64,000 nucleotides of DNA from Takakia lepidozioides (Eukaryota; Plantae; Bryophyta), in the NCBI GenBank assembly GCA_030704615.1, contig CM060732.1:9052001-9116000 (forward strand). Direction: 5' to 3'. The position numbers were made by a program, and so were the translations under genes. Shown in pieces: positions 1 through 51,422 of the stretch. The notes below the pieces were generated by a model. The model made no database searches, was not told the origin of the DNA, and saw only the letters and a list, made by a program, of their open reading frames with translations. The stretch's first letter is position 1; every line of letters starts with the position of its first letter.

Positions 1-1559
1 ACATTGAAGCACCTGAGGGACAAAGCGGGTGGTTAGTAGCATGCGGCATGCAATTGCAATCGGGCCAGGGGACAAAATGTGCACGTGAAGGCTTACCCGT
101 GCCGCATGTGAGGTCAAGAATCCGCCCTTGGACATCCGAGCACGTCTCCATGAGGGTTTGGATGAAAGCAGGGCTCCGGGTCCGGCTGTACCACCACGGT
201 TTGCCTGTCTTTGTGTCCTTCGGCATACTGGATTGGGGCACATAGTTGTAGAGGACATCGTAGGTAACAGGGTCCACAGCGGCATCAACAAGACGACCGT
301 CATTGCGGAATTTGAACGTAGACCCTCTCTTCACAAAACAATATGCCTCAAACACCAATGTCTGCACATCCAACAAAAGAGGGATCCACTCCAGGGTCTA
401 GTTTAGATACACCACAATATGAAGTGAATGCAATAGATTGATAACTTACACTCTGGCCCTCTGTTCGCAACCCCTGCGTATTGATGCAGAACCATTTTTT
501 CAGGAGGACCGGGGTGACACTTTTTGGTGTCCACCTTGCCACAACATTCTCTGTGGTCTTCCCTCTTGTGGCAAGGACCACCATACATCCACCGTCATCC
601 AAGAGCATCCCTGCCAGCCCAAACCCGGCTCTCCAGTAGTCCTCCCTAAACCTGTTCCAGGTGGGCACACCATCCAGGCCCTCCAATAGCTCCCCATCTG
701 GAATATCGAGGAGAATCATAACGCAGGCTCTCTCCACCTCACCCCCCCCCCCCCGAGTGCTCTTGCAATCCGTGCTCACAGCCGTGAAGAATTCCATCAT
801 GGCTTCCAAACCAGGGGTGTCTTTAGGCTCTGTAGCAGCAGCCCTCTTCTTGGCTTTCCCCTTCAGCTCCTCCAGAGACTTGCTGTGTGCCACCTTCTTC
901 GCCCTGGCAGCCAGAGCATCAAGAAAGCTCTCATTGACGCATTGGATGATAGTTGGGGATTCTAACTTTGGCCTTTGCGGAAACGTCACCGCCGAATACC
1001 GTTGTGTAGGCTCGCCCTCAAATGCCAACTTCTTGGCAGAGCCAGTCCAAGTCCGAACTGACTTGGGAACCCGGACGACCGGTGACTTGGTAGTAGCAGC
1101 AGTAGTCGCAGGACCTCGCACAAAGTCGTCGTCGGAGTCACTCCCTTGGGGCCCCTTCTGCGCCTCCTCTGGTGCCCCGGTGGTTTTCTGTTTTTTGGGG
1201 GTTACTTTACTCCCCTGTTTCCGTGTCCTTTTCATTTGTCTTTTATTCTTCTCATTCAAATTCTCCTGAATACCTGCCTAAGCAAGCTCTGCCGCTTTCC
1301 TGGACTTGACAAGTGCTTTCGCCTCCTTTGGACCCAGCGGAGGCAGCGGAGCTCGGTTTGGTCGGGCCTCCGCATCCAGCTTCAATTGGAACTCGGATGA
1401 GTCGAGCGAGCCGGGCGGAAGGTCCACATACCAAGGGCAGTCGCGCAAATGCTCCAGATGCCACTCCTTCACGATAACGTCAGTGTACATGGAGTCAGCT
1501 CCAGGCTTCCTCCATGCGAGGAAGAATGGCGGCTGGAAGGACAGATGACCTTTCTCCAA
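1..1559 (-). pseudogene. Divergent homologue of the TE-borne amino-DNA-methyltransferase-like cargo gene (spliced, frameshifted; runs off the left edge)
   Basis: The translation contains FLAWRKPGADSMYTDVIVKEWHLEHLRDCPWYVDLP (cargo: FIYSWADPSNDKTMYTAGIAKDWSRAHFRDCGWYLDLP) and MILLDIPDG...PTWN...LLDDGGCMVV...WFCINT. After an intron it reads TLVFEAYCFV...SPAFIQTLMETCSDVQGRILDLTCGT|GASM. Two intron positions match the cargo gene at 34-38 kb. Confidence 0.8.
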
Positions 1560-14670: not shown

Positions 14671-15160
14671 TCAAGCGAATTACAAATCACCAGTGGGTGA
14701 CAATGGGTGCACATGTCTATGCGCATCACCTCCATTTCTGTTTGAGGGTCCCATTTGCAGAAAAGAACAAAGCAACCCCCATCGTCTAGTAAATGTCCGG
14801 ACAAGGCGAGAACGTAGTTCAGAATCTGCTCTCGCTTCACATTCCATGGTGGAATCCCAACAAACCCAGTTTCAGGCACCTTATGACTATCAGGAATATC
14901 TACCAGAATAAGATCTGCTCTTGTCTTAATGGAATCCACTGCAAGGGAACGCCGCACAGACTGTCTCAAGGGGCTGGGGTGTTTTTTCAGAAAAGTAGAG
15001 AGTCGAGACCGACTTTGTTTCTTTCGACCATGGTGCATTCCCTCCTCTCGTTTGTAGACGCTGGACAACAAGCTTGTAAAAATCACAGGCCATGCAGATT
15101 ACCTCTGTAGCAGGAACTATCTCTTGCAACAGCCGCGCCTCCAACGTATGCATCCGTCAG
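14670..15160 (-). pseudogene. Third divergent fragment of the amino-MTase-like cargo (N-terminal catalytic-motif half)
   Basis: RADLILVDIPDSHKVPETGFVGIPPWNVKREQILNYVLALSGHLLDDGGCFVLF...LVICNSL matches ATDLVVLDIPDGFPVPDVLPSNSIPTWN...NKFLSDSGALLL...WTCINTL. It is truncated at about the point where the convergent CACTA transposase is truncated. Confidence 0.75.
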
Positions 15161-28697: not shown

Positions 28698-29221
28698 CAA
28701 CGACGCTACCGCGTGAGCCTGGCGCGTGAGCGTGTGAGCGTACGCTCACACAACGATGACGTGGCATGAGCCTACACTCACGCAGCTGACATGGCGCTGA
28801 TGCTGACGTGGCGTGAGCCTGGTCGAGGTCATGCCACGTCACCACAAAGAAGGTGGGCCTATAACCGTGGGGCCCCCAACTGCTAATTTCACCACATGAA
28901 GGTGAAACGGATGAAGGGTTTCGGGCTTTCTTGGAGTTCAACCTTCTGTTAACAGGAGCTTCATTTCACGATGTTGTTTTCTTAGAACTAAAATCAACCT
29001 TGTGTCGGCACAAGGGGGATTTGGAAAACTCCAAGTAAACCTTGTGTTAACACGAGGTTGATTTGATCATCTGTCTATCTGAGGTAGTTTCTTGTGCTTG
29101 CTAATGAAAACAGAATGACAAACCAATGCGACAAATGCATTGACCCACGCATAGCAAAGATGTTAGACGACATACATTGAGAGACACTGGACTGGAACAG
29201 TCATTCCATTACAAGTTGTAG

Positions 29222-32200
29222 TCAAGGAAAACACAGATTTCGGAGTGTCAAGTGCATGCTTTCTATGGGCTTGTATCCCGCTGTAGAAGTATGTTGACTT
29301 CGTTGAAACTCATAGTGGCTTGGTGAATGAAGAAGTCCCGCTTTGGATCACAAACCATCCTTCTCAAGAAGACGAAGTAAAGGTGTTTGCACGGTATGAA
29401 CTTCCCTCTCTTTCCCAAACTACTTGAAAGCATACCAACAAAATCAAGTCATGTACAATTGGGAAAATTGGAAACAGTGATGTCGTACGTCTTGTCCTGC
29501 AGCGGAGATGCGAATGAGATCATGGTGAAGACCCGACCATACCCTGGATCAGGCACTTCCATTGTTCCCGCAACACGAGCATGAAGCATTTTCGCGGACT
29601 CGATTTTGCCATAGTGTTCTGCGGTTGGAGGGAATCGTCAAACCAGCTTCCCATTCCGTCTGGTTGGCCACAAGTGAGCGTCAGGCGGAGGTACCCGTGA
29701 ACCGCTTGTACTTGAAGCACCTTCATGTGTAATGGAATGTCTGGCTAGGGAGAAACCGGCCTCTTCCAGCATTACGATCTCTTGGTGAGTGAGACATGTG
29801 CCCATCTTCACAGGCCACACGGTTGGTGGAGTAGGCTTCCTCACCACGGAGGGCCTCACTGTCCCACGCACATATCTCCCGCAATCGTCAGCGCAAAACC
29901 AGAACTTGTGGTTCTTTGCCTCTCCTTGGCCGTTAGGGAGAAACAAACCAGTGAATATAGGAGCTGCAGTGCGTTCTTTCCCTATGGATATTAATGATGT
30001 ACATTTTTCATGATTGGTGGCCCTGATCACCGCGCATTTAACACGCGATCCAGCACTTGTGCGTTCTATATGTCAAACCTCGTCCAAGCACATGGACTCT
30101 ATTACATGCGGCACCACGTTTTGGTCTTCAACCATTGCAGTGACAATGCTTGATGTAGGGGTCCGGTCTGGGGCAGAATGGCCCTCACCTGTGGATGTTC
30201 CACAATTCCATCTCTGATCCAAGGGAACACGTGGCATTGAGAAGTTGACCCGGTCCGCCCTATGGGAATCTGCATCCGATCCGGGAGGGGTATCCAATTT
30301 CCGTTTGCAAGCCCCGAATCTCTCTTCGCCTTCCAGATGGGGAACTCTTCCCACGAGAGGGGTGCCATCTGCACATATGCTCACTGCCCGCGCTATTTTG
30401 CTGGGATCCCCCGATCTTTGGGCTGCCCACAACATCAACTCGCTCCTGTCTGGGCCTTTGCCTCCAAGGCCACCCCTCAAGAATGACCTGTATCTGGTTT
30501 GCTGCTGCAGAGCACGGATAAGGTCATCGGCCGTAGCCGCATACAAATCTCTTCCCTTTTGCTGCAACCACGCATTGTGCACTGTCTCCGCTAGATTGCA
30601 AGACGACATGTCCGCCATCTCCTCAATGGACATATGCTGCAAGGCAAAAAAACACAAAGCCGATATTAGGATGGGACCCTGAAAGATATATCCGAAGCAC
30701 CCAAAGGAAGGTGAATGCAAACCGCTCACCGTTGTCATGGCCGCTCCCCACTGTCGGTAACGGAAGTGCCAAAATGCGAACCAGTATTCGCTTCCCCCAT
30801 AGTTTTGGCGTCTTTGTATTGTTTGCACAGTTGACGATGCATACTCTGCATATCTGGCTTGATGTCTGCCTTTGTGTGTTTGTCCAGGGATTGTGTCCAA
30901 TGGAAAAGACACGTACGTTCTCTTCCAGGCATTGGCACTTTTGGATCTCCCGTCCCGAATACAATGCAGACAGCGTTGAAGTTAGCTTGAGCACTGTCGG
31001 CCATAAAACCAACAAAATTGGGAGATGGGAGACCATTGGAGGCCATAACACGAATGAGAGCTTCCCACATGAGGTGATATGAATTTGTGTCCTCTGACTG
31101 CATGTCACACACTGCAATTGTCATGACACGCTGGTACACAGGGTCGTAAACATGACATGCCATTGTGGTCCAGTCTTTAACCCTCTTAACGTGATCGAAC
31201 ACAAGGAAGCAGTTGCCTAGATCGCCACCATTCTGCATACGTTTAACTAGGCTGACGCCGCTGCCCTCACCTTTTGTAAACATTTTGAACAAGAAAACTT
31301 TCCTGGCTCCTTGCCCCGGGAAAACGTTGTCTTGGATGTAGTCGTACATGCTCCTTTTCTTCAAATCCATAATATTGTCCATATAACCTCGGCTCCCAAA
31401 GCCCATTCTTAAAGTGTTCACCTGATTCCTAATGTTTGGAGAAGTCAAAGTTGAGAAATGGTCCATAACAGTGTCCAAAGCTGGTCCCTCCAATTTTCCT
31501 CCAACCGAATCCGATGCACACAAAATACGGCTTTCCAGAAAGGACTTGCTCGCCCCCATGGCAATTGCAGATGTGGTTCCAGTTGGATTGGTATCCAACT
31601 CTTGCCTTATCAAACGCGAGACTGTCTCAACGCTCTCCCTGTAATCCCCCTTGGACACAGGGTGGTTGTGAAAACCGAAATGGACACAGGCTCTAGTCAG
31701 GGTTTTGAATCGATGCACCACATAGTACATTCTGGCGCCACACATTGTAAGGCAGCAAGGTGGTACCCTACAGAACTTGCACACAAAAGTGTTACTGTAT
31801 GGTGGTGTCACACCAAGCTTGAATGGATTCTCACTGACACCATCCCATTCGCTTTGGTTTTGCACACCCGACAATGCGAAGTGTCTGCATTTCATGTTCT
31901 CGCATTTCAGGTGCCCATTACAGACTGTTCGCCTGAATATGAGGTTGTCATGGTTGTGAATATTGGAGGTTTTTGTGCGGCACCAAGGGTGCCCATCGTG
32001 CTTTTTGTCCATTCCTTCCATGAGACTGGAAATGCCCCCCACGCGACCAGGAGGAGGCAGCTCGAAAACAGTATTACCAGCAAAAGATTCCGGCAAGAAT
32101 GCCACCCTCTGAACATTGAAAGTGCTCCAGTCGATCCCCTCAACTCACTCTTGAATCCTGCCATCCCACCCATGGCTTTCAGTTTAGGAATGACACTGGT

Positions 32201-32680
32201 GATCTCCTCCACATCTGCTTCCTGATGTAGACATGGCTGATCCACTGGCGGTATTTCACAGGCGTCATCGGAGGATGAGTCCGAAAGCTCAACTACAGTG
32301 TTAACGGTACTTGACTCCTTCTTGACAACCACGGGTGTTTTCTCTTGGGCCACAGATGCTGTCGTGCCAGGAGTAACGAACGATCCTGCAGACGGTCTCC
32401 GAGGAGCATTGAGCACCCTGTATCTGCCTGGTCACTCTCCATTGTGTGTGGTTGGTGCAGTATGCGAAGGTTTCTGGAACGCGTACTTGAGCAATTTTCC
32501 ATTGGCATCGTACACTTCCCTTTCAAGGAATAGAGTTCCATTTTCCAACCGAAACTGCGTTGCGAGCACGTGTTCATGCACCACCGCAAAACCGTCATCT
32601 TCCACCTCGTAAGAAAAGGGGACAGGGTGGTCCTCACTAAAGAAGTCCGCGTCAAGGGAGCCCATGGGCTGGGAGGCCAT
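29222..32680 (-). pseudogene. MULE transposase with N-terminal GCM-type zinc domain, DDE core and C-terminal SWIM finger (copy 1; frameshifts, small deletion)
   Basis: GCM-like W..T..N...C.G.L.C...C...CKFC..P...C...G.HNHP. D1 in FDHVKRV, D2 in FMADSAQA, CxxH in CLFHW and E in CNLAETVHNAW (after an intron at ~30637-30727). SWIM-type C-x-(C)...CKH (degenerate in this copy, intact in copy 2). Confidence 0.88.
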
Positions 32681-33367: not shown

Positions 33368-36300
33368 AGACGGTGACCACATCCCGAGGGAGAAGAAAAC
33401 GTCGAAGAACACTTTACTTCACATCAAACAAGCAAAGGGTACCTGCTAAGGAGAGGATGAGGAAGGCGAGACGGGAACTTAGAATGGGAGAAGAAACCTC
33501 CGGCGGAGATGAGGACGAACGCCAAAACCCGATTCTGCAACCACCGTTTGGAGAGGAAGGTTGATGTCGACCTCCAAAGTGTATGTTCTGGGCATGAAAC
33601 GAGTGCAGATGCTACACTCGAATCAACCTTGCGTTGACACGAGGTTGATTCGTGTGCCTTTTTTGTTCATTCCCACCAACCCTAAACGCCTGGCAGCCAT
33701 GGAACTGTTGAATGCTCCCGGTGCATCATCAAGTGTCAAGAAGAAACCATAAGTTGCAATGTGCTTTTCCATCTGATTTTTTTGTTTGTTGAACACCAAT
33801 CTGAGAGCTCGACATCAACCTTGCGTCAACGCAAGGTTGATGTCGACCTCCAAATTGTTTATGAAGGTGACATGAAGCAGATTCAGCACTCGAATCAACC
33901 TTGCGTTGACGCGAGGCTGATTTTGATGCCACTCCCAACATCCGAAGTCTCGCACCAGGAACCGCAAAGTAGGGAAAGTCGATTATCTGAAGCCCCCAAA
34001 AGAACCCTGCGTCAACGCAAAGCATTTAGTGGGTCCAATGGACTGTTGCGGTATGCATTTCAGACTAAGCTACATCCCCATCAATCAACCTTGCGTCAAC
34101 GCGAGGTTGATCCATGGGAGCTCAATCTGTCACTCACAGGGATATTCATTATCTGCAGAGGAAAAGAAAAAAGAAATCCATGGGGGGAGATGCGGCAGTG
34201 GCAGAAGGTGATGGTGAGGAAGAGTCATTTGAGGGACACTATGAAAACAAGGCCGAGGAGGTTATGGGTGGGCAGAAAGTGAACTCCTCGAAGGTGATTC
34301 TGTCGATGGAGGTTCCCGGCGGAAACCTGGTTATCCCACTATGCAGGATGATCTCCATGCCCGTGGTTCGACCCGCATTGAGGAACGACATCACGAAGTT
34401 GAAGAACGATTTTGTTCATGGCTATGTCAAGGGATCTGCAGTGTTCTATGTATCCACTGTGAACACGAAAGGAGAGGAGTGTCTTGTAACAGAGGACATA
34501 GAGCAAAATTGGGATGCATGCTGGCGGGATGTAAACAGGGAGTTCGAGTTCAAGCTGTCCAAAAAGGCCTCCACAAAAGCGTTTATGGGAAAGATATTTT
34601 TTGTTTGGGATGGAAACCATAGACTGCTTGCCTGGATAGATTACATTTCAAGCTTGCACTCGGACGAGATTGAATGGCACTGGAGCGTGGTTTCCATGGT
34701 ACTCGACCACAAAGGACGTGTCACGCAGCTCTTGACAACCATGCACGACATAAACAAGTAAGTTACCAACATTGTTCCTGTTCCGATCTGCGTTTGCACA
34801 ATTAGAAATCATCTTATGAGTTGAAGGTTTTTCCAGGTCCAATGAAACCTCCCATGTGACGACAAATCTCTGCCACACTCTATTCCGTATCCAGAAGATA
34901 GGGCTGATGCCACTGGAGTCATTCACAAACGTGCTCAGTCCTCAGCAGATGAAGAGGTGTGCTAAAAAGAAGACAAGCACATGGTACAGCCTGACAAGGG
35001 AGGCTTTTCTTGACTACATGTACACGGTAAGCTTCTTGACATCTGTTTGATTGTTGTTACTGCAAATTTTATCAAGAAACGACAGTGTTTGATTCTTTCT
35101 CCCTATAATGTATGCAGCAAGAAATAGCAGAAACTGGTTTGAAGGCAAAAGCAGAGTACTATGCTTCCCACACAGAAGAACAGAGGTCTGCAACTGGGCT
35201 TGAGGACATTATGAAATTCGAGATGAACAATTAAAGGAAGAACCTCATGAGTGCGTTTGACAAACAAATCGCGCATAGCAGATCCAAGTCTTGGCACGGA
35301 ATTTCTGGAACAAGTGAAAGCACATTATGACAAGTATGGCTCCAAGCCAGAGATGACCCAAGAGAAACTGCATCGCCTTTCCATTTCAATGGTAGACAAT
35401 GCAACCAAAATCAGGTGGTTGCAGATCTGGAATTCCGATCCACTTGTGAGAGACACCAACATGTTCCCATCTCCTGAGAGGGACTCGAAGACACAAGCAA
35501 TAAAAGTTGTTAGCGACCACACATTCGACCAATGGCTACACAAAGCAACCTTCTGGAGCCAGGTAAGGTTTCCACAAAACCATTTTCAAATGCTTGTGCT
35601 GCTCCGTGCTCTCTCCACAATTCTTATGATCTTTGTTGCTGCAGTTGGAAAAACGAGCGGTGGCTGCACTTGGGGAGTCAATGGCAGACTACAAAATCCA
35701 GATGGCTTGCCCCCGGATCACACTGGAGGCCTATATCAGGAGATGGAAGCTCGGTGTCTGGAATAATTGTTTCTTCAGGGAGTTCGAGAGAGACAAAGGA
35801 ATCTCCAGGTCCTACGAACTCAAAAACCGGTACAACAGCGAGCAAGCAATGAAACGAGTGTTGTACCGGTGTGACCTCCAAGAAACAAATTTGGTACTTG
35901 AAGTGTTTGTGTATTCTTGTGTCGTTTTTTCCATGTAGAACTGCGAATTTGGAGGTTTTGAGGGAGCTCTGAAGGCTCTGGACATGCAGCCGAGCAACAT
36001 TGCGTTAACGCAAGCTTGTATCCCGTTGTTTTGGTTTCACTTTCATGTACCTGGGGTATCCAATGATGTCATTTTTCTGCATGTGAGAGGGCAAAAACTG
36101 ACAGGCAAATCAACCTTGCGTCAACGCAAGGTTGATGAAGGGCCAGGCTATGTAGGTTTTCTTGTGTTCTTGGGCTTTTTTTTGTGGTTTCCAGTTCTCA
36201 TTCTGCCAGGATGAACTTAAAGTCTGTTTGGAGTCTGTTTGAAATGTTGTTTAGAGCTTACACTGTACCAACAAACAGCCTTGCGTTGACGCAACGTTGT

Positions 36301-38620
36301 TTGACGGTATGGATTGCTAGAAATGTCCCGCAGAAATACCCCGATTTCCATACAATTGTAGGAAAGTTAAGGTTATCAAATACCATGGACAAGTGTTTCA
36401 GCAGAGGAATTCAACCTTGCGTCAACGCAAGGTTGAATATCCATACCAGCAGATCTTTGGATGGTTGTTTTCAAGCACTGTTTTCCATTTCCTCTGTTAA
36501 TGAAAACAACCTTGCGTTGATGCAATGTTGAATTCCGTTGTCAATCACTGTCTCTTTCAATGCTACATTATCATAGGTGTATCCGCCAATCTTCTTTGTG
36601 TCAACGCAAGGTTGATTGGGGTTCCATGTTGTGCATGAGATGTTTTAGGATAATGGGCTTTCCCTCTCGTAGGTGCTTGTTGAAAGTGCAGTTCTCCAAA
36701 TTTGGTGTTTTCCATTTCAGCTCGAATCAACATTGCGTCAACGCAAGGTTGATTCGGGCTTTCAAACGTTAGTTTATCAGTGATACTGACCTGCATGCCA
36801 ATACCCTTTTCGTGATGTGTGATTTGTGTCATGATCAGATCGATTGACTGTCTGGATTTTGGGTGTGTGTGTCATTCAGGTACATGTATCATGTCCTCAT
36901 ACCAGGGAAGTACCTTAGCGATGACCCAGACTTCATCTATCATGGGCTGACCCCTCCAATGACAAGACAATGTACACGACTGGTATTGCCAGAGACTGGA
37001 GCAGGGCGCACTTCAGAGACTGTGGTTGGTACCTCGATCTGCCAAAATAGGACACACCATTCGATGAAGTTGTTTTGAGAAACCTTAACGACAACGCCAC
37101 GACACTTGCCCCACTGGCTGACAAAGACATTCAGGACAGAATCATTGCTGCTTTGGCTGCAAAAGAGCCTGAGAAATCTGCTACTCCAAAACGGAAGAGG
37201 AAGATTGCCGAGGATCCGAAGGGGAAGGGGAAGAGTGCAGCTCCGCAGGAACAGGGCCCGTCAGAGGTCGCTGAAAGACAACCTTTTCCAACTAGGAGGG
37301 ATAGGAGAACAACAAAGTCGAGGGAGCAGCCTTTCGATGCGAGAAAACATCCGTCCAGGGTTTTGGGCCAGTTCCATCGTAAGGTGGTGAATGAAAGTTT
37401 TCTGGCAATGATGGAATCCAGGAAGTCCATATTCAAAGGGGTGCCCTCGAAATCATGGGACATGCTTGTTTCGTTCCTCACTAAGGTAAGCACATATGTC
37501 TTAACTGTTGTGTGAATAATTTTGTTTTGACAACTTGTTCTGGCTTGTCGAGGGGATTGATTTCTTGTTGGATCTGGATTGGGCTTGTGACACTGTCTCC
37601 TGTTTTTGGCTGTAGGTCACAAAAAGGCCGGATTGGGTGAATGGAGTTCAGCAGGCATACGCAACTGACCTTGTGGTGCTGGACATTCCTGACGGTTTCC
37701 CTGTCCCTGATGTGTTGCCTTCCAATTCGATCCCCACTTGGAACATATCGGATTCTCGTTACTGGCAGTGGGCTTTCTCATTCAGCAACAAATTCCTTTC
37801 TGACTCGGGGGCTCTTCTTCTCATGCAATCAAAGGACATGTCGGCACGGAGAACTCTTTTCAGCTACATGAAAGCTTCCGGGTTTCGTGTCATCAAAACT
37901 TGGACATGCATCAACACTCTGCCTCTTACAAAGGGCGAGTTCCCGGGGCAGAAAGTGAGTTGGTTCCTTTGAATTAAAGTTTCGTGGTTCTTCAAAAAAA
38001 GTCAAAAGTTGGTTCGTGTCTTTTGCCTCATGCTCTCTTCGTGATTATTGACAGACTCGGGTGTTTGAAGCTTTGTGCCTGGTGAGGGTGCGTAAGGACA
38101 CTCTTCCTCTTGGTATTGTTGAGTTCCAGTTGATGGACCTTGCAGTTGACATTGACCCCACCTGCGAGCCTATGGAGGATGATATAATCTTCAATTACGT
38201 GGACTCGGGTCGAACTACGAAAAGTTCGACTGGTGTCCCTTGGAGAGGTGCACGGGAGAAATTCCCAGCTTTCATGCAGACTTTGGTGGAGACATGCAGC
38301 CGTCACGGTGGACGAGTGGTTGACTTGTCTATGGGAACAGGTGGGGCCCTGAACACTATGTTTGAAATGTGGGCAGTGAGCTTAGGGAAGCCCTGTTTTG
38401 ATTTCTTGTTCATCTTCGATTTGCAGGAGCATCTTTTCATGCATGCAAAAGCGCCGGAAAGCACTTCTTCGGCATGGAGGCTGATACGGAGCTCTTCTCA
38501 AGCGAGCTTCATCAGCTTGAGTCGGGCACTACTTCTGCCCCATCCACAGAGGGACTTCTTGAGGAGCCCGAAGCGCCTGACGAGGATCTCGACGTGGACT
38601 CCGATCTTGAGTGTGAGTAA
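33368..38620 (+). pseudogene. MULE cargo gene: ParB/Srx-like domain fused to a beta-class N6A/N4C DNA methyltransferase-like domain (copy 1); exons ~34159-34757, 34837-35025, 35118-35562, 35645-35868, 36880-37485, 37616-37955, 38055-38340, 38426-38620 plus upstream exon(s)
   Basis: ParB motif FFVWDGNHRLLAW. MTase motif-IV region DLVVLDIPDG, FLSDSGALLL, and REKFPAFMQTLVETCSRHGGRVVDLSMGT|GASFHACKSAGKHFFGMEAD (compare TEKP..L...I..S..GD.VLDPF.GSG....A....GR.F.G.E.D). GT-AG introns keep one frame. One internal stop and frameshifts in this copy. Confidence 0.8.
33620..36755. repeat. Dispersed 26-bp palindromes TCAACCTTGCGT-YR-ACGCAAGGTTGA in cargo-gene introns (copy 1)
   Basis: Perfect copies at 33815, 36110 and 36411. 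Variants at about 33623, 33895, 34003, 34085, 35995, 36276, 36507, 36590 and 36727, and also near the left end at ~28994 and ~29038. Confidence 0.92.
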
Positions 38621-39591
38621 GTTTGGCTCTAGTCGTGCAAAATATGTTGCATTTCCTTGTATCATTCCCGTTCGACAGATGGTTGCTTACATTGTCTATT
38701 TCTGGATGATAACATCTACCACCATTCCTCTTCTTGCTTTCCAGAGTTCGGCACCAGTCATCGAATACGCAGACACCTTTCAGTTTCCAAGGATACTACA
38801 TGTCCCCGAGTCCCACTAGAGCTTACCTGTCGTGCACATACATATCGCTACACAACTACATCGCTGTCCAAAACCACACAACATATGTGCACACCAAACA
38901 CTAGTCTATCACTAGTCCACCACTAGTGCGCCACTAGGCTGCCACTAGACAACCACCAACGACGCTACCGCGTGAGCCTGGCGCGTGAGCGTGTGAGTGT
39001 ACGCCCACACAATGATGACGTGGCGTGAGCCTACGCTCACGCTGCTGACATGGCGCTGATGCTGACGTGGCGTGAGCCTGGTCCAGGTCATGCCACGTCA
39101 CCACAAAGAAGGTGGGCCTATAACCGTGGAGCCCCGAACTGCTGATTTCACCACATGAAGGTGAAACGGATGAAGGGTTTTGGGCTTCTGGAGTTCAACC
39201 TTCTGTTAACAGGAGCTTCATTTCGTAGAACTGAAATGAACCTCGTGTCGACACAAGGGGGATTTGGAGAACTTCAACAAAACCTCGTGTTAACACAAGG
39301 TTGTTTTCCTGGAACAAAAATGAACTTCGTGTTGACACGATGTTGTTTTCTGAGAACTAAAATCATCCTTGTGTCAACACAAGGAGGATTTGGAGAACTT
39401 CAAGTAAACCTCGTGTTGAGACGAGGTTGATTTGATCATCTGTCTATCTGAAGGTAGTTTCTTGTGTTTGCTAATGAAAAGAGAATGACAAACCAATGCG
39501 ACAAATGCATTGACCCACGCATAGCAAAGATGTTTGACGTCATACATTGAGAGTCACTGGACTTGAATAGTCATTCCATTACAAGTTGTAG

Positions 39592-42500
39592 TCAAGGAAA
39601 ACACCGATTTTTATGGGCTTGTATCCCGTGTAGAAGTGTGTTGACTTCGTTGAAACTCATAGTGGCTTGGTGAATGAAGAAGTCGCGCTTTGGATCACAA
39701 ACCATCCTTCTCAAGAAGACGAAGTAAAGGTGTTTGCACGGTATGAACTTCCCTCTCTTTCCCAAACTACTTGAAAGCATACCAACAAAATTTGGACATG
39801 TACAATTGGGAAAATTGGAAACAGTGATTTCGTACGTCCTGTCCTGCAGCGCAGATGCGGATGAGATCATGGTGAAGACCCGACCATACCCTGGATCAGG
39901 CACTTCCATTGTTCCCGCAACACGAGCGTGAAGCATTCTGGCGGACTCAATTTTGCCGTAGTGTTCTGCGGTTGGAGGGAATCGTCGAACAAGCTTCCCG
40001 TTCCGTCTGGTTGGCCACAAGTGAGCGTCAGGCGGAGGTACCCGTGAACCGCTTCCACTTGAAGCACCTTCACGTGCAATGGAATGTCTGGCTAGGGAGA
40101 AACCCGCCTCTTCCAGCATTGCAATCTCTTGGTGAGTGAGACCTGTGCCCATCTTCACAGGCCACACGGTTGGTGGAGTAGGCTTCCTTACCACGGAAGG
40201 CCTCACTGTACCATGCACATCTCCCACAATCGTCAGCGCAGAACCAGAACTTGTGGTTCTTTGCCTCGCCTTGTCCGTAAGGGAGAAACAAACCCGTGAA
40301 TGTAGGAGCTGCAGTGCGTTCTTTCCCTCTGGAGATTAATGATGTACATTTTTCATGATTGGTGGCCCTGATCGCCGCGCATTTCACACGAGATCCAGCA
40401 CTTGTGCGTTCTATATGCCAAACCTCGTCCAAGCCCATGGACTCGATTATATGCGGCACCACGTTCTGGTCTTCAACCATTGCAGTGACAATGCTTGATG
40501 CAGGGGTCCGGTTGGGCCAGAGTAGCCCTCACCTGTGGATGTTCCGCAATTCCATCTCTGATCCAAGTGAACACGTGGCGTCGAGAAGTTCACCCTGTCC
40601 GGCCTATGGGAATCTGCATCCGATCCGGGAGGGGTGTCCAATTTCCGTTTGCAAGACCCGAATCTCTCTTCGCCTTCCAGATGGGGAACTCTTCCCACGA
40701 GAGGGGTGCCATCTGCACATATGCTCACTGCCCCCGCTATTTTGCTGGGATCCCCTGATCTTCCAGCTGCCCGCAACATCAACTCGCTCCTGTCCGGACC
40801 TTTGCCACCAAGGCCACCCCTCAAGAATGACCTATATCTGGTTTGCTGCTGCAGAGCACGAATGAGGTCATCGGCCGTCGCCGCATACAAATCTCTCCTT
40901 TTTTTGCCGGATTGCTGCAACCAGGCATTGTGCACTGTCTCTGCAAGATTGCAAGAAGGCATGTCCGCCATCTCCTCAATGGACATATGCTGCAAGGAAA
41001 AAAAACAGAAACCCGATATTAGGATTGGACCTGAAAGATATATCCGAAGCACCCCAAACGAAGGTGAATACAAACCACTCACCGTTGTCATGGCCGCTCC
41101 CCACTGTCGGTAACGGAAGTGCCAAAATGCGAACCAGTCTTGCAGTGCCCTCATGCTGTCCTCCGATGCCGCTCCAGATGAGTACCACCAGGCACGAATT
41201 GTCTGGAACAATGTATTCGCTTCCCCCATAGTTTGGCGTCCTTGTACTGGTTGCACAGTTGCGATGCATAGTCTGCATATCTGGCTTGATGTATGTCTTT
41301 GTGTGTTTGTCCAGGGATTGTGTCCAATGGAAAAGACATGTACGTTCTCTTCCAGGCATTGGCACTTTTGGGTCTCCCGTCCCGAACACAATGCGGACAG
41401 CGTTGAAGTTAGCTTGAGCACTATCGGCCATGAAACCAACGAAATTGGGAGATGGGAGACCATTGGAGCCATAACGAATGAGAGCTTCCCACATGAGGTG
41501 TGAATGTGTCCTCTGACTGCATGTCACACACTGCAATTGTCATGACCCGCTGGTACACAGGGTCGTAAACATGACATGCCATTGTGGTCCAGTCTTTAAC
41601 CCTCTTGACATGATCGAACATAAGGAAGCAGTTGCCAAGATCGCCACCTTCTGCATACGTTTAACCAGGCTGACCCCGCTGCCCTCACCTTTTGTGGACA
41701 TTTTGAACAAGAACACTTTCCTGGCTCCTTGTCCCGGGAAAACGCTGTCTTGGATGTAGTCATACATGCTCCTTTCTTCAAATCCATAATATTGTCCATA
41801 TAACCTCGGCTCCCAGAGCCCATTCTTAAAGCGTTCACTGATTCCTAATGTTTGGAGAAGTCAAAGTTGAGAAATGGTCCATAACAGTGTCCAAAGCCGA
41901 TCCCTCCAGTATTCCTCCAACCGAATTTGATGCACACAGAATACGGCTTTCCAGAAAGGACTTGCTCGCCCCCATGGCAATTGCAGATGTGGTTCCAGTT
42001 GGATTGGTATCCAACTCTTGCCTTATCAGACGCGAGACTGTGTCAACGCTCTCCCTATAATCCCCCTTGGACACAGGGTGGTTGTGAAAACCGAAATGGA
42101 CACAGGCTCTAGTCAGGGTTTTGAATCGATGCACCACATAATACATTCTGGCGCCACACAAAGCAAGGCAGCAAGGTGGTACCCTACAGAACTTGCACAC
42201 AAAAGTGTTACTGTATGGTGGTGTCACCCCAGGCTTGAATGGATTCTCACTGACACCATCCCATTCGCTTTGGTTTTGCACACCTGACAATGCGAAGTGT
42301 CTGCATTTCATTCTCGCATTTCAGGTGCCCATTACAGACTGTTCGCCTGAATATGAGTTTGTCGTTGTTGTGAATATTGGAGGTTTTGTGCGGCACCAAG
42401 GGTGCCCATCGTGCTTTTTGTCCATTCCTTCCAGGAGACTAGAAATGCCCCCCAAGCGACCAGGAGGAGGCAGCTCGAAAACAGTATTACCATCAAAAGA

Positions 42501-43093
42501 TTCCGGCAAGAATGCCACCCTCTGAATATTGAAAGTGCTCCAGTCTATCCCCCTCAACTCACTCTTGAAACCTGCCATCCCTCCCATGGCTTTCAGTTTA
42601 GGAATGACACTGGTGATCTCCTCCACATCTGCTTCTACAGGTGGACATGGCTGATCCACGGGCGGTATTGCACATGTGTCATCGGAGGATGAGTCCGAAA
42701 GCTCAACTACAGTGTTAACGGTACTCGTCTCCTTCTTGACAACCACGGGTGTTTTCTCCTGGGCCACTGATGCTGCCGTGCCAGGAGTAACGAAAGATCC
42801 TGCAGACTGTCTCAGAGGGGCACTGAGCACCCTGTATCTGCCTGGAGGCACTCTCCATTGTGTGGCTGGTGCAGTATGCGAAGGTTTCTGGAACACGTAC
42901 TTGAGCAGTTTTCCATTGGCATCGTACACTTCCCTTTGAAGGAATAGAGTTCCATTTTCCAACCGAAACTGCGTTGCGAGGACGTGTTCATGCACCAGCG
43001 CAAAACCATCATCTTCCACCTCGTAAGAAAATGGCACAGGGTGGTCCTCACTGAAGAAGTCCGCGTCAAGGAGCCCATGGCCTGGGAGGCCAT
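39592..43093 (-). pseudogene. MULE GCM-DDE-SWIM transposase (copy 2; multiple frameshifts)
   Basis: Same motifs as copy 1, spread over ORFs 42321-43037, 41835-42311, 41421-41621, 40447-41472 and 39592-40227, including SWIM FPNCTCPNF...PCKHLYFV. Confidence 0.88.
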
Positions 43094-43710
43094 ATGTCGA
43101 TGTTGCTTCAGAAAGTAGAGTTCACAGTCCGACGGTGCTTGTGAATGCAAATTGTGTGGGAGCGGAGTTTTTGGCGTCCTCACAGAGAATTGCAGGTATC
43201 GCTCCGGCTTGCAGATCTCCTAACGGGTTTCCACTTCTGTGAAATGTCTCCCCATGAAACCAAGCGCATGGTCATAATGTCAGCCCTAATCCTAGAATCC
43301 AACTGTTTTCACAAGTGCCCCACCAGTGCATTCGTTGACAGATTGACTGACAGAGCCGCCGTTTGGTTGTCATGTCAGAGAGGCCAGAAGAGATGCCCAT
43401 TTCCATTTAATTTTAACGGCACCTGCACCGCTGTACAACTGTACATACTTGACATTCCTCTGGAACATGCCAGAATAACGAACTTTTTCAGATGGGAGGT
43501 GATTAGACCCCAACGGTTTTTGAATGGATGAGGATCCAATGATCTCCGCCGATATTTCATAACGATTAGATGGGACACGTGTTCGCCATGCATGTGGAAT
43601 GAGTCAGTGGCGCACTGAACGTTGCGAGCGAACATCTTGGCGTTGAAGGCCTTGCGATGAACCTCCCATAGTCCTCTTCTCTTATTGTCTTTGCAACCCT
43701 GGATTCTGCA

Positions 43711-46700
43711 GAGACGGTGACCCCATTCCGAGGGAGAAGCAAGCGTCGAAGAACACTTTATTTCACATCAAAGAAGCAAAGGGCACGCGCTAAGGAGAGG
43801 ATGAGGAAGGCGAGACGGGAACTTAGAATGGGAGAAGAAACATCCGGCGTAGAGGAAGACGAAGGGCAAACAGGATTCTGCAACCGCAGTGTGGAGAGGA
43901 AGGTCTTGAAGTGATCCCGGAGGCGACCGATGAGCAACCTCCAATAGAAGGGGGGGAGGACGAGGAAGTGAGCTGGGCTAGGGAGGAAGCACTGCGAGTA
44001 GAGAAACAGGTCTTCAAAGAGCAGGGGAGAACAAACGGACGCGGAAACGATGCCGTCTGCCCTTGTTTCGCACCATCGGGACCTCCTTGGAAGCATGCTA
44101 CCTCCAGACAAATGGAAAGATTGAATGCGTCAGGAGCATCATCAAGTGCAAAGAAGAAACCGGAGGTGGCTATGAACTCTCTTTCTCTCTCTCTGATTCT
44201 TTCTGGTTCTTGCTAAGCATTGAGGTCGACATCAACCTTGCGTCAACGCAAGGTTGAAGTCGACCTCCAAGTGTATATATTGGGCATCAAAACAGTGCAG
44301 ATGCTGCTCTACAATCAAGCTAGACAGACATGGATGCTTGCGACGCATCATCAAGTTCGAAGAAGAAGAAGACACACAATCAACTTTTCCTGTAGCTTTT
44401 GTGTGTTTGTTCAACACCGATCCGAGAGCTCGCAATCAACCTTGCGTCAACGCAAGGTTGATGCCTACCTCCATTGTGTATGTGATAGAACTTCTAGTGA
44501 AACGAACAGATGCCGCACAGGAATCAACATTGCGTTGACGCAAGGCTGGTTTTGATGATTTTTTGTTCAATGGAGCGTCCGATCTCTCATATCCTGAAAT
44601 GTAAGGTAGGGAAAGTTGATTAGTTGAAGCTCCCAAAAGAACCCTGCGTCAACGCAAAGCATTTTTTGCTTGAAAAGTTTTCCTGTATGCTTTTCAGTCT
44701 AAACTACATCCCCATCAATCAACCTTGCGTCAAAGCAATGTTGATCCATGGGTGCTCAATCTGTCACTCACAGATAATTCATTCTGTGCAGAGGAAAAGA
44801 AAAAGGAAATCCGAGGGGGAAGATTTGGCCGCGTCAGAAGGTGAAGGTGAGGAAGACTCATTGGAGGGAAACTATGAAGACAAGGCCGAGGAGATAATTG
44901 GTGGGCAAAAAGTGAACTCGTCGAAGGTGATTCTGTCGATGGAGGTTCCGGCGGAAACCTGGTCATTCCGCTGTGCAGGATGATCTCCATGCCCGCTGTT
45001 CGACCGGCTTTGAGGAATGATATAACGAAGTTGAAGAACGACTTTGTTCACGGCTATGTCAAGGGATCAGCAGTGTTCTACGTATCCACTATGAACACGA
45101 AAGGAGAGGAGTGTCTTGTAACAGAGGACATTGAGCAAGGTTGGGATGCATGCTGGCGGGATGTAAACAGGGAGTTCGAGTTCAAGCTGTCCAAAAAGGC
45201 CTCCACAAAAGCATTCATGGGAAAGATGTTTTTTGTCTGGGATGGGAACCACAGACTGCTTGCCTGGATGGATTACATTTCAAGCTTGCACTCGGACGAC
45301 ATCGAATGGCACTGGAGCGTGGTTTCCATGGTTCTCGATCACAAAGGACGTGTCACGCAGCTCTTGACAGCCATGCACGACATAAACAAGTAAGTTTCCA
45401 ACTTTGTGTCTGTTACTTGTTTCGACAATTTGAAATCATCTTATGAGTTGAAGGTTTTTCCAGGTCCAATGAAACATCTCATGTGACGACCAATCTGTGC
45501 CACACTCTATTCCGCATCCAGAAGGTAGGGCTGATGCCACTGGAGTCATTCACGAACGTGCTCAGTCCTCAGCAGATGAAGAGGTGTGCTGAGAAGAAGA
45601 CAAGCACATGGTACAGCTTGACAAGGGAGGCTTTTCTTGAGTACATGTACACTGTAAGCTTTTTGACACCTTTTGCCTGTTAATACTGCAAATTTTGTGA
45701 TGAAATTGCAGTCTTTGATTCTTTTTACCTGTTATGTATGCAGCAAGAAATAGCAGAAACTGGATTGAAGGCGAAAGCGAAAGCAGAGTACTATGATTCC
45801 CACACAGAAGAGCAGCGGTCTGCAACTGGGCTTGAGGACATGATGAAGTTCGAGATGAAAAATCAAAGGAAGAACCTCATGAGTGCATTCGACAAACAGA
45901 TCCGGATAGCAGACCCAGGTCTTGGCACGGAATTTCTGGAACAGGTGAAAGCACACTATGATAAGTATGGCTCCAAGCCAGAAATGACTCAAGAGAAACT
46001 ACATCGCCTTTCCATTTCAATGGTGGACAATGCAACCAAAATCAGGTGGTTGGAGATATGGAATTCGGATCCTCTTGTGAGAGACACGAACATGTTCCCA
46101 ACTCCAGAGAGGGACCCGAAGACACAAGCAATAAGAGTTGTTAGCGACCACACATTCGACCAGTGGCTACACAAAGCCACATTCTGGAGCCAGGTAAGGT
46201 TTGAACCAAACCATTTTCAGACATTTTGTTGCTCCGTAACCTCTTGAAAATTCTTACGAGCTTTCTTGTTGCAGTTAGAAAAACGTGCAGTGGCTGCACT
46301 TGCTGAGTCGATGGCAGACTACAAAATCCAGATGGCTTGCCCCCGGATCACACTGGAGGCCTATCAGGAGATGGAAGCTCGCTGTCTGGAACAACTGCTT
46401 CTTCAGGGAGTTTGAGAAAGAGAAAGGAATCTCCAGGTCTTACGAATTCAAAAACCAGTACAACAGCGAGCAAGCAATGAAGCGAGTGTTGTACAGGTGT
46501 GACCTCCTTGAATCAAAATTGGTGCTTGAAGGGCATTTTTCTGCAATCTTGTGTCGTTCTTTCCATAAAGAATTGCGAATTGCAGTGCTTTGCGAGATCT
46601 CTGAGGGCTCTGCATGTGCAGTCGAGCAACATTGCGTTAACGCAAGGTTGTTTCCCATTGTCCTGGTTTCACTTACCTATACCTGGGTATCCCATAATGC

Positions 46701-49094: not shown

Positions 49095-51422
49095 GTTCTT
49101 GTGTAGTCGTGCAAAATATGTTGCATTTCCTTGTGTCGTTCCCATTCGAGAAATAGTGGCTTCGTTGTCTATATCTGGATGTTAACATATACCACCATTC
49201 CTCTTCTTGCTTTGCAGAGTTCAGCACCAGTCATCGAATCAGCAGACGCCTTTCGGTTTCCAAGGATACTACATGTCCCCGAGCCCCCTAGATCCAACCG
49301 CTTGCCGGTTTACGCGGAAGCTTGCGCACGGGTATTATCCGAACAAACACTGTACTCGCATCTCCATGAAGGTCGAGGAAAAAAAAACGTCATGGATGTG
49401 CTGCTGTATTCATAGATGATATTGCTGTACACTGGAAGTGGTTCCTCTGAAACCCTCCAATATTTCTTTAGGTTCAAGTACCGAGGCTCAATAAATTGTA
49501 TTTTGGTTTTGCTTCCATCTCCAAACTGTTTTTCAAGTTCTTTGCGCGTTCCCGTAAGTAGTTGGGGATTGCCTAAATAGGTCTTCGGATTGCGGAATTG
49601 AAAAATGATTTGTGTTGGAATGAATGTACTGCTTTGCCCAAAAAAAATGTTTGATTTTAATATTCAGTTCTCTAGTGGACGATCTCCTCATTCCAAAGTC
49701 ATGACCTCAATCATAATTCATCCGCAAACCTGCCATTGTTCTCGGCCACAAAGAATATTCATGTGGGGGCCTTGAAGAGGGATAAAAAATTAGGACATAG
49801 GCGACAGCTGATCCGCGGTAATAGGGGGGGTAAGCACGGAATTACGGCCTGAACACGTGGAAGCTTGCTGACGTGGCGTGAGCCTAGCCAGGCTCACAGG
49901 CTCACAGGCTCACGCGGCCAGGCTCACGCGCAAGCATTCCCCGACAACCACTAGTCCACTAGTCCACCACTAGGCTGCCACTAGCCACCACTAGTGCAGC
50001 CACTAGTCCAACCACTAGGCTGCCACTAGCCACCATTAGTCCATCACTAGGCTGCCACTAGTCCATCACAATCGCCCCCCTAGCTGGCGCTTAGGTCCCT
50101 CTAAGTCCAGGTAGCCACAAGATGTGATAGTAGCCATAGCCTCACCAAGTCCTCCACCACTGTCCCTACTACACTCAAACTCAATAGATCAAGAGGCCGG
50201 GTACAAGAGTTGCCCCATCGTTAGTCGCTGTCTTGCAACCTGTGAACTTGAGCCTGAGATCTTGGGTATTGACTCCTATGAGCTTGGCCTCCTATGTCTT
50301 GTGAGCTGTCACTAGTCATATCCACTGCCACTATCCCAAGCAGTGTGGACATAACCAATCTCCATCAGGAACCCTCTCAAGAGGTGGTGTCAAGCATCCC
50401 ATGTGCCAACCTTTTGAGCATCGATCACACACCAGCATAGTGGCGGCACCACGAGCATGCCCACATAGCATGCAACGCAACCCTGCAGGTACCACTGCAA
50501 GGTTGGGATCTATCCTCCCATCCACATGTGGAAGGTGACATGGCGCACAATTACGCACATGGTCCTTCCATACCATGCCATCTCGACCCTCTAGAATCAA
50601 CACTCCTGAAGGCAACACCTCCCTGACCCTTAGAATCACACGTCCTGCTGTGACATCCAAGGTCGTAGGCGTTGTCTGCTGCAGATACACATAGTCCCCA
50701 AGGTGGAACACCTAGCCGATATCCCCCTCCACGTATAGTGACATACCTCAATGTGTCTCGGTGTTGGGCAATAGCAAGATTCTCAAAAGCCATAGGCATG
50801 ACTCTCTTGAACGACTCTGCCCGCTGGGCACATGTTTGTGTCCACACATCCGGATCATCAAGGTTGAGGACTACTGCAGCCTCTCTGCGAATAGACGCAG
50901 GCAAATCCGGCTCTCGGCCAAAGAGAAGGAAATATGGTGAGAAGGAGGCAAGTGATGTTTGCTTGCTAAACCTGTAGCCCATGACTAACCAAGGTACCTG
51001 AAGATCCCAATCTCCTAGGTGTCCCTTTTGCAAGCCATACTTGCGCAAACCCCTCTTCATCGTCTGAACCACTCTCTCTGCCAAGCCATCGGCCTCAGGA
51101 TGATCCCGAGAAGTGGTACGGTGGTCTATCAAGGCTTTATCACACAAAGCCTGAAACTCCCCAAGAACTCTCTCCCTTGGTCCGTGAGTACCTAGCTGGA
51201 GCACCGAATCGGCTAAGCACACGATCTAGGAATGCATACGCAGCCCCCTCACTAGCCTTGTCAGGGCAATGGAACCAACTCAATCCACTTGGAGAAGTGC
51301 TCCACCATCACCAACACATATCTGTGGTGACGCATCGTCAGTGACAAAGGCCCTGCGAAGTCAAGACTCCACCTGTAGCCCAATCCCATGATGGGTAAAG
51401 GATGCAACTGTGGTGTAGGGGC

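What the first reader, a model, noticed from the sequence alone, without database searches (positions are those of the whole stretch)
1..1559. The MTase cargo is a diversified family with a conserved non-canonical DIPD catalytic motif
Seen: three strongly diverged lineages occur in 64 kb (1-1559; 14670-15160; the two MULE copies). All have D-I-P-D where amino-MTases have (D/N/S)PP(Y/F), followed by P.WN and L.D.G. The 1-1559 copy also shares an upstream W..P...MYT..I.K.W...H.RDC.WY.DLP block and two intron positions with the MULE cargo. Inference: DIPD is under selection rather than decay. Loss of the base-stacking aromatic suggests either a catalytically dead reader/shield of DNA or altered chemistry or substrate. 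The downstream conserved Trp (P.WN) could compensate.
Basis: partly seen in the sequence, partly recalled or inferred. Interest (0 to 1): 0.75.

Follow-up and report, generated by a model that had tools for sequence, protein, structure and literature searches.

The report
Plant transposon ParB-pseudomethylase with rewired pocket
A family of plant jumping genes carries a conserved, spliced gene predicted to join a bacterial-type ParB module to a DNA-methyltransferase fold whose base-gripping residues have been swapped for a pair of opposite charges, so the protein likely no longer methylates adenine and likely serves instead to recognise the palindromes that stud its own element.

Summary
In detail: DIPD, P.WN, L.D.G, the upstream block and two shared introns are all there. 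The window copies are broken, but related RNA-type contigs are spliced at the predicted junctions. DIPD sits at motif IV of a beta-class amino-methyltransferase fold (model Z about 15 to CcrM). The exon is under purifying selection (dN/dS 0.13). The family motif is D-x-P-[E/D]: literal DIPD occurs in 8 of 113 relatives, an acid at position 4 in 98. 'DIP' and the downstream Trp already occur in phage methyltransferases, and the corresponding Trp contacts the cofactor in solved structures, so Trp compensation is not supported. The real change is paired: Tyr to Asp/Glu and Thr/His to Arg/Lys, the two residues that sandwich the flipped adenine. Cofactor-contact residues are largely kept. The domain ends a roughly 1,100-aa ParB-fold fusion lying head-to-head with a MULE-like transposase, and the element carries 32 non-coding palindromes. 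Best reading: a SAM-binding pseudo-methyltransferase for self-recognition and anti-silencing (0.5). Altered substrate remains open (0.22). ParB-methylase transposon genes are already described from algae; the rewired pocket was not found in print.

The parts
450..1559 (-). Copy A exon: upstream conserved block (about 1410-1559), low-complexity linker, N-half of methyltransferase fold; premature stop at 1278-1280; appears 5'-truncated at 1559
   Evidence: an RNA-type contig matches 788-1559 and runs on with letters not in the window
696..707 (-). Copy A motif IV, D-I-P-D
362..449 (-). Copy A intron, phase 0, same position as C 37955-38054
   Evidence: contig X1 record 1 joins 450-748 directly to 95-361
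97..361 (-). Copy A exon with the R-x-[RK] segment (HPTQK equivalent) and motif I DLTCGTG
13..96 (-). Copy A intron, phase 1, same position as C 38341-38426; the next exon runs off the window
14700..15060 (-). Copy B fragment, N-half of the fold, DIPD at 14889-14900; abuts a CACTA transposase on the other strand
28698..28830 (.). Left end of element C with a short imperfect terminal inverted repeat (partner near 49890-49930)
29200..32431 (-). MULE-like transposase gene of C with C-terminal SWIM finger, head-to-head with the accessory gene; broken
   Evidence: Pfam MULE E 0.011-0.015, below cut-off; SWIM E 4.9e-5 in the D copy; dN/dS 0.15
33622..36753 (.). 12 dispersed 28-bp quasi-palindromes of C: 5 between the two genes and 7 in the large intron of the accessory gene (3 more at 28937-29062)
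   Evidence: none in mapped C exons
34111..34761 (+). ParB/sulfiredoxin-fold exon of the accessory gene, copy C (WDGNHR motif)
   Evidence: 46% identity to the N-part of P0145; model pLDDT 87; fold matches; dN/dS 0.07
34820..37485 (+). Middle exons (helical region, upstream conserved block, linker) with introns; frame change and stop near 36940-37050
37616..37954 (+). Copy C DIPD exon (DIPD at 37682-37693); preceding intron 37486-37615
   Evidence: intron spliced in contig run X1
38055..38620 (+). Copy C last two exons: GAREK segment, motif I DLSMGTG, motif II acid (FGME), stop; intron 38341-38426
   Evidence: intron spliced in X1 and X2
38957..49935 (.). Element D, tandem sister copy 86-92% identical to C: transposase (minus strand), ParB exon 44878-45393, 17 palindromes, DIPD at 48164-48175, right terminal repeat

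Best explanation
The DIPD domain is the C-terminal part of a conserved accessory protein of a MULE-like plant DNA transposon, predicted to be a ParB-fold domain joined to a beta-class amino-methyltransferase fold that likely still binds SAM but likely no longer methylates adenine or cytosine, and that likely works as a self-recognition scaffold on the element's own palindromes. Shown: (1) the gene is spliced, under purifying selection and lies head-to-head with the transposase; (2) the residue that stacks the flipped base (Tyr/Phe of motif IV) is Asp/Glu, and the residue that stacks the other face (Thr/His of HPTQK) is Arg/Lys; (3) residues that contact the cofactor in solved relatives (Asp and third-position Pro of motif IV, the loop Trp, Lys, Ser/Thr-Gly of motif I, the motif II acid) are largely kept; (4) the element carries dispersed non-coding palindromes. 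Inferred: the acid and the base pair up and plug the base pocket; SAM or SAH stays as a structural ligand; a dimer loads through the ParB part on the palindromes; bound protein keeps host 5mC silencing off the element's two promoters, in the manner of VANC.
For: Fold: model of relative P0072 (pLDDT 80.7) matches CcrM Z 15.0 (rmsd 4.0, 204 aligned), BceJIV 14.8, MboII 14.8 and PvuII 14.5. The Asp ends strand 36-42 of the model. P0145 matches PF01555 positions 2-217 above the cut-off, with DTPF where DPPY falls. Position 4: E 66, D 32, aromatic 1 of 113. The HPTQK-Thr position is R/K in 17 of 17 acid-type sequences with that segment (cluster mates collapsed) and H in DTPF-type P0145/P0150, as in a phage enzyme with DPPF and HPHEK. 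The target adenine is stacked between Tyr34 and Thr191 in CcrM (PMC6787082) and between Tyr62 and Thr216 in BceJIV (PMC11380664). Tyr-to-Gly in DPPY inactivates HP0593 (PMC3036652). Position 1 drifts to E or Q in 12 of 113 relatives, including 3 of 19 long ones. dN/dS C versus D: DIPD exon 0.13, ParB exon 0.07, transposase core 0.15. Splicing of related copies. N-domain: the 8 best of 15 fold matches are ParB/Srx proteins, Z 5.6-7.7. Palindromes: 22 matches against 0 in 100 shuffles; 32 of 32 looser matches lie inside C or D. Arrays of 4 or more copies lie upstream of the ParB exon in 14 of 35 related loci, against 0 of 35 shuffles and 0 of 17 downstream stretches. A related transposase is head-to-head in 8 of 18 loci with at least 5 kb upstream.
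Against: No activity, binding or methylome data. Strict conservation of a first-position Asp (97 of 113) and of an acid at position 4 is equally what a new active site would show. The Tyr mutant data are for Gly, not Asp/Glu. The first Gly of motif I is Ser, Ala or Asn in most relatives, so SAM binding may be weak. The palindromes could be transposase sites. ParB Z-scores are under 8 and Foldseek gave no match at E 0.001 or better. 10 of 18 loci showed no related transposase upstream. Several arrays share a motif and are not independent. The 113-protein tally came from a DIPD query that missed DTPF-type P0145, so aromatic-keeping members are undercounted. The RNA label of runs X1 and X2 is a guess.
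Confidence: 0.5

Rival explanations
1. The domain is an active SAM-dependent enzyme with a remodelled pocket. The new acid would read the pairing edge of a different flipped base (cytosine, 5mC or guanine) while Arg/Lys stacks on it, or the D-x-x-[D/E] pair would bind an amine substrate such as a lysine or polyamine; the ParB part would aim it at the element.
For: The two pocket walls changed together and were then kept. The first Asp and cofactor contacts are retained. Aminopropyltransferases use a D-x-x-D pair, the first Asp to deprotonate and the second to anchor the amine (PMC10146546). The palindromes keep their CpG sites (left arm 22 of 23, right arm 19 of 23) in DNA whose CpG observed/expected ratio is 0.44-0.67.
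Against: The fold is clearly beta-class amino-methyltransferase; spermine synthase scores only Z 4.5, so the D-x-x-D likeness would be convergent. Position 1 tolerates E or Q. CpG retention is also explained by selection on a binding site or by recent copying.
Confidence: 0.22
2. It is still an ordinary, perhaps slow, 6mA or 4mC writer that marks its own element; another aromatic residue or the Arg would replace the stacking Tyr.
For: Asp, the backbone carbonyl at position 2 and the Lys that binds N7 in BceJIV are kept. One family member keeps Phe (P0145 DTPF). The Ectocarpus ParB-methylase is predicted to write 4mC or 6mA (PMC12477816).
Against: The aromatic is needed in tested enzymes. The candidate compensating Trp is ancestral and its counterpart contacts the cofactor. 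Both stacking residues are lost in the acid-type members.
Confidence: 0.13
3. The protein is a transposition cofactor rather than an anti-silencing factor: a ParB-like clamp that bridges or compacts the element to bring its ends together, with the methyltransferase fold serving only as a dimerising DNA-binding module.
For: Palindromes also lie near the left ends of C (3) and D (6). The terminal repeats are short and imperfect. Spm TnpA is an accessory needed for transposition (10.64898/2026.08.24.746577). Beta-class enzymes dimerise.
Against: 23 of 32 palindromes lie between the two promoters and in an intron, the layout of VANC targets (PMC5735166). None was found at the right end.
Confidence: 0.12
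4. The motif is neutral decay of a captured gene.
For: All four window copies are broken, and most metagenome loci are relics with eroded motifs such as DVPR, DILG and DVPS.
Against: dN/dS 0.13 in the exon; an acid at position 4 in 19 of 19 long proteins; conservation across sequences of about 30-45% identity; spliced transcripts.
Confidence: 0.03

Closest known systems
Sola1-1_Ec32 accessory gene of Ectocarpus (PMC12477816; passages and supplement rows seen)
   Same: 1104-aa protein with a ParB-like domain plus an N4/N6 methyltransferase domain, transcribed opposite to the transposase, and proposed to bind and modify its own element.
   Different: Here a land-plant-type MULE-like element, motif IV without its aromatic, a paired Arg/Lys change and dispersed palindromes. 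The passages seen give no motif state. Sequence homology to that protein was not tested.
Plavaka/Mutator accessory genes PAG2 and PAG3 of red algae (10.1101/2025.02.11.637652; passages seen)
   Same: PF01555 methylase and ParB-like domains carried by DNA transposons; arrays of inverted repeats beside the ParB gene, proposed as its targets.
   Different: There the methylase is joined to SET and the ParB domain to a 2OG oxygenase, in separate genes. Here they are one fusion with an altered pocket.
VANDAL/VANC anti-silencing system (PMC5735166; passages seen)
   Same: A Mutator-like element with an accessory gene; short motifs heaped in introns, intergenic and terminal non-coding regions, differing between families.
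   Different: VANC has DUF1985/DUF287 domains and binds a 9-base motif arrayed in one orientation. No such Pfam match here. Anti-silencing is shown for VANC and only inferred here.
Beta-class amino-methyltransferases (CcrM, M.BceJIV, M1.MboII, M.PvuII, rotifer N4CMT; phage PF01555 enzymes)
   Same: Fold, motif order IV before I, cofactor-contact residues; natural DIPY and DFTMGSG variants in phages.
   Different: Tyr/Phe of motif IV is Asp/Glu, Thr/His of HPTQK is Arg/Lys, and His is Gly.
Marchantia MpDN4MT1 (10.1101/2021.02.12.428880; passages seen)
   Same: Prokaryote-type beta-class enzyme in a seed-free plant.
   Different: It has an intact TSPPY motif and is an active sperm-specific host gene. 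No sequence comparison was made.
Inactive amino-methyltransferase domains: METTL14 and the DIRS1 retrotransposon domain (PMC4738411; passages seen)
   Same: Conserved methyltransferase folds with disrupted active sites; the DIRS1 case is transposon-borne.
   Different: Different clades; no ParB fusion or palindromes were described in the passages seen.

Membership tests
beta-class amino-methyltransferase (PF01555) | Permuted Rossmann fold with motif IV before motif I | tested here: met
   Proxy P0072 model: Z 15.0 CcrM, 11 beta-class chains at Z 12.7-15.0; order seen in window exons
beta-class amino-methyltransferase (PF01555) | Pfam profile above the gathering score | tested here: inconclusive
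   Window exons alone: no match; P0072 20.8 bits, below 26.7; P0145 30.4 bits, above
beta-class amino-methyltransferase (PF01555) | Catalytic motif IV ending in an aromatic residue | tested here: not met
   Aromatic in 1 of 113 relatives and 0 of 4 window copies; kept in P0145/P0150
beta-class amino-methyltransferase (PF01555) | Cofactor-binding residues (motif I Gly loop, motif II acid, Lys of HPTQK) | tested here: met
   By alignment only: D.[SA].GTG / D..A.TG, acid after the next strand, Lys mostly kept; the first Gly varies
beta-class amino-methyltransferase (PF01555) | SAM-dependent 6mA or 4mC formation | not testable with these tools
   Needs an assay
ParB-methyltransferase transposon accessory genes (Sola1-1_Ec32 type) | ParB-like domain fused N-terminally to an N4/N6 methylase fold, about 1,100 aa | tested here: met
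   P0145, 1147 aa, carries both; same order in C and D; methylase half downstream on the same strand in 22 of 48 distinct loci, many of them short; ParB fold Z 5.6-7.7
ParB-methyltransferase transposon accessory genes (Sola1-1_Ec32 type) | Lies opposite to a DDE transposase inside one element | tested here: met
   C, D and 8 of 18 loci with at least 5 kb upstream
ParB-methyltransferase transposon accessory genes (Sola1-1_Ec32 type) | Common descent with the algal proteins | not tested
   Algal sequences not retrieved
Mutator/MULE superfamily | MULE DDE domain and SWIM finger | tested here: inconclusive
   PF10551 E 0.011-0.015, below cut-off; SWIM E 4.9e-5, above cut-off
Mutator/MULE superfamily | Terminal inverted repeats with a target-site duplication of about 9 bp (length recalled) | tested here: inconclusive
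   Short imperfect inverted repeat of about 35 nt found; no clear duplication
VANC proteins | DUF1985/DUF287 domains | tested here: not met
   No such Pfam match in window ORFs or P0145
VANC proteins | Family-specific short motifs accumulated in non-coding parts of the element | tested here: met
VANC proteins | Sequence-specific loss of 5mC on expression | not testable with these tools
   Needs transgenics and methylomes
Marchantia DN4MT1-type 4mC writers | TSPPY motif | tested here: not met

The most novel reading that the evidence does not exclude
A transposon-borne amino-methyltransferase fold has evolved a new active site. The Asp/Glu plus Arg/Lys pair that replaced the adenine sandwich flips and reads host-methylated cytosine (or another non-adenine target) at the element's CpG-containing palindromes and uses SAM to modify or cap it, guided by a eukaryotic ParB/parS-like clamp. 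That would be a sequence-targeted counter-silencing enzyme with chemistry not yet described.
Probability: 0.15. Interest if true: 0.88.

Novelty: new variant of a known kind. Interest (0 to 1): 0.52.

Why it matters
Transposon proteins that recognise and epigenetically protect their own copies are shown for only a few systems. ParB-methylase accessory genes were proposed from algae without tests. This family supplies a natural pair for a direct test: a member with a canonical-looking pocket (DTPF with His) and many with a charge-swapped pocket, each element carrying its own candidate binding palindrome. The result would show whether methyl transfer is needed at all for self-protection, or whether a dead or re-purposed methylase fold suffices, and whether a ParB/parS-like logic works in plant chromatin.

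Tried and rejected
No whole genome is held for this window, so copy number and intact copies in this genome were not counted. Pfam found nothing on the window's single exons. An alignment search for longer homologues covered only 2009-5000 aa and found none, which is weak evidence. Sequence searches of solved structures gave only weak DpnA/CcrM hits or none. Pattern scans for the ParB and methylase parts found no confirmed relative in viral contigs or prokaryote genomes; these reach only close relatives. Alignment A5 misplaced the mid-region fragments, so the helical middle was not folded. The ESM Atlas likeness of the N-terminal half to fungal DUF3723 (score 0.96) was not confirmed by Pfam and stays a lead. 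No RNA holder of the window's own sequence was listed. A single core motif shared by all lineages' palindromes was sought: enrichment was slight (0.17 versus 0.10 per kb), so it is not claimed. Sequence shared upstream of loci without the transposase gave no Pfam transposase match apart from CACTA pieces and looks like other repeats. In one search the transposase-core dN/dS was computed in the wrong frame and was redone. The profile-to-sequence alignment to phage L003 puts DIPE on DIPY and WN on WD but is weak (probability 2%, E 0.025). Trp compensation and neutral decay were considered and rejected. No complex prediction was run.

Full report
Observation. The window is eukaryotic, plant-like DNA, with PPR-like fragments (my reading of the translations), CACTA and retroelement pieces and spliceosomal introns; no genome is held for it. 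DIPD occurs four times, each followed by P.WN and L.D.G: A (minus, 696-707), B (minus, 14889-14900), C (37682-37693) and D (48164-48175). C and D are tandem copies 86-92% identical. A, B and C/D are 31-44% identical in the DIPD exon. A and C share two intron positions and phases, and A and D share the upstream block (49% over 45 aa, E 3e-9). All copies are damaged. Contigs from two runs of the same species label, guessed to be RNA, come from related copies and skip introns 37486-37615 and 38341-38426; one joins 450-748 straight to 95-361. Relatives of both lineages therefore appear to be transcribed and spliced as predicted.

Family and motif. A profile-free search with the C exon found 121 proteins; one (P0121) is an unrelated repeat protein and was left out, and 113 have all four motif positions. 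Position 1 is D 97, E 10, N 3, Q 2, H 1. Position 3 is P 94, L 16, other 3. Position 4 is E 66, D 32, K 5, N 4, S 4, T 1, W 1. Literal DIPD is 8 and DIPE 21. All 19 proteins of 200 aa or more have P and an acid. W and N of P.WN stand in 115 and 117 of the 121 aligned rows. Of 20 clusters looked up, three are named: two from the moss Ceratodon purpureus and one from the liverwort Riccia sorocarpa. The tally is biased toward the query: the Ceratodon protein P0145, which has DTPF, was missed by it and found only through the N-terminal domain. Between C and D, dN/dS is 0.13 for the DIPD exon (p 5e-5), 0.07 for the ParB exon, 0.15 for the transposase core and 0.38 for the motif I exon (p 0.04). In a 21-row tree with six phage enzymes, P0145 branches outside the acid-type members with moderate support (91/86, midpoint root), and A and C group together (98/94). 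The literal DIPD of the window is thus partly shared descent.

Position in the fold. A model of relative P0072 (pLDDT 80.7) matches beta-class amino-methyltransferases: CcrM Z 15.0, BceJIV 14.8, MboII 14.8, PvuII 14.5 (Foldseek E 3.5e-11). The Asp ends the catalytic strand. P0145 matches PF01555 over positions 2-217 above the cut-off. Alignment with six phage methyltransferases puts DIPD on DPPY/DPPF/SPPY; two of the six have DIPY, two have a W-D after the motif that aligns with W-N, and two have DFTMGSG against the window's DLSMGTG. So DIP, the Trp and the unusual motif I are ancestral. In solved relatives the loop Trp contacts the cofactor (CcrM W57, PMC10359602; N4CMT W142 and P109, PMC10406627); I equate it with the P.WN Trp by position only. 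The target adenine is stacked between Tyr and Thr (CcrM Y34/T191; BceJIV Y62/T216). In this family both changed: Tyr to Asp/Glu, and the Thr position to Arg/Lys in 17 of 17 acid-type sequences covering it, whereas DTPF-type P0145 keeps His like a phage DPPF enzyme. Loss of the Tyr inactivates HP0593 (PMC3036652).

The whole gene and element. The exon at 34111-34761 is 46% identical to the N-part of P0145, and the intervening exons match in order, so the domain ends a fusion of about 1,100 aa. The N-exon model (pLDDT 87) matches ParB/sulfiredoxin proteins in its 8 best of 15 rows (PadC Z 7.7, rmsd 2.7, 95 aligned). These Z-scores are middling and Foldseek found nothing at E 0.001. The gene lies head-to-head with a MULE-like, SWIM-bearing transposase, between short imperfect terminal repeats. 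A metagenome scan confirmed 144 matches and returned 80 loci, 48 distinct. The methylase half lies downstream on the same strand in 22 of the 48, many of which are short. A related transposase is head-to-head in 8 of the 18 with at least 5 kb upstream, absent in 10, and tail-to-tail in one further locus. Most of these loci are relics with eroded motifs.

Palindromes. C and D carry a 28-bp quasi-palindrome with 13-bp arms: 22 matches at up to 3 mismatches against 0 in 100 shuffles. All 32 looser matches lie inside C or D, between the genes, in the large intron or near the left ends, and none in mapped C exons. In 35 of the 48 loci (13 lacked enough upstream DNA), arrays of 4 or more copies lie within 2.5 kb upstream of the ParB exon in 14, against 0 of 35 shuffles and 0 of 17 downstream stretches. 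The motifs differ between lineages, and some loci share one, so they are not independent.

Mechanism. Most likely (0.5) the protein binds the palindromes and the methylase fold is a cofactor-bound but non-methylating module, the whole acting VANC-like against silencing. VANC targets likewise pile up in introns and intergenic and terminal regions (PMC5735166). Rivals: a remodelled active site for another base or an amine (0.22; D-x-x-D precedent in PMC10146546); residual 6mA/4mC writing (0.13); a transposition scaffold (0.12); decay (0.03). Binding, activity and effect on silencing are all untested.

What is known. A ParB plus N4/N6 methylase gene opposite a transposase is described in Ectocarpus Sola1-1 (PMC12477816). 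Red-algal elements carry PF01555 and ParB genes with inverted-repeat arrays (10.1101/2025.02.11.637652). Phage ParB-methylase loci are noted in PMC4738411, whose supplement gave DIPD/DIPE only in unrelated proteins. Ten literature searches listed no description of the land-plant family or of the acid/base pocket. The library lacks most subscription journals, the 2011 chapter cited for green algae was not seen, and bioRxiv supplements are closed and could bear on this. All papers were seen as search listings and passages only. Earlier AI notes from this scan, read late (two searches gave nothing), describe the same design in other genomes, some with an apparently active and some with an eroded motif; they are unchecked and not counted as support.

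Verdict. Real, conserved and selected; a new variant of a recently recognised kind. The contribution is the precise active-site change and a testable natural contrast. Interest 0.52.

Noticed in passing
window 8231-10273: Array of about 23 palindromic units (period about 51) just after a CACTA DUF4218 fragment at 7687-8253; probably a CACTA subterminal array, but it also lies between copy A and a SWIM fragment.
   Followed up: partly
window 10410-12481: A short repeat resembling the C/D end region (10410-10448), a 64-bp palindromic array of 8.4 copies (10895-11431) and a SWIM-bearing 3' piece of a related transposase (33% identity to the D copy); perhaps a deleted element of a third lineage.
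   Followed up: partly
window 12670-14911: CACTA transposase (PF02992, E 4.7e-72) abutting copy B on the opposite strand; CACTA pieces also lie upstream in L034 and L037, so the accessory gene may ride CACTA elements too.
   Followed up: partly
P0145 residues 200-730: ESM Atlas likeness (0.96) to fungal DUF3723, a conserved Starship cargo gene; if real, DUF3723 would be a ParB-fold transposon accessory. A search for DUF3723 with ParB listed no paper.
   Followed up: partly
L001:547-1314 and L003:259-987: Phage methyltransferases with a natural DIPY motif IV.
   Followed up: yes
P0039, P0042, P0045, P0048, P0077, P0117, P0119: A subfamily with EYPD at motif IV (7 of 113), having lost the first Asp as well.
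   Followed up: no
P0149 (Riccia sorocarpa): Annotated 570-aa protein with the ParB-like and middle parts but no methylase domain; either a truncated gene model or a real loss.
   Followed up: no
window 2000-6950: Tandem, broken PPR-like fragments, matched by thousands of RNA-type contigs.
   Followed up: no
window 38899-38956 and 49956-50069: Short 11-bp tandem repeats containing CACTAG flank the C/D junction and the right end of D.
   Followed up: no
window 50067-55000 and 58500-64000: LTR-retrotransposon pieces (integrase-like, PHD-like finger, RNase H) and LINE-like reverse transcriptase pieces, read from translations only.
   Followed up: no
window 24177-24581: ORF resembling the end of a mitochondrial carrier protein, probably a host gene (recalled motif, not tested).
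   Followed up: no
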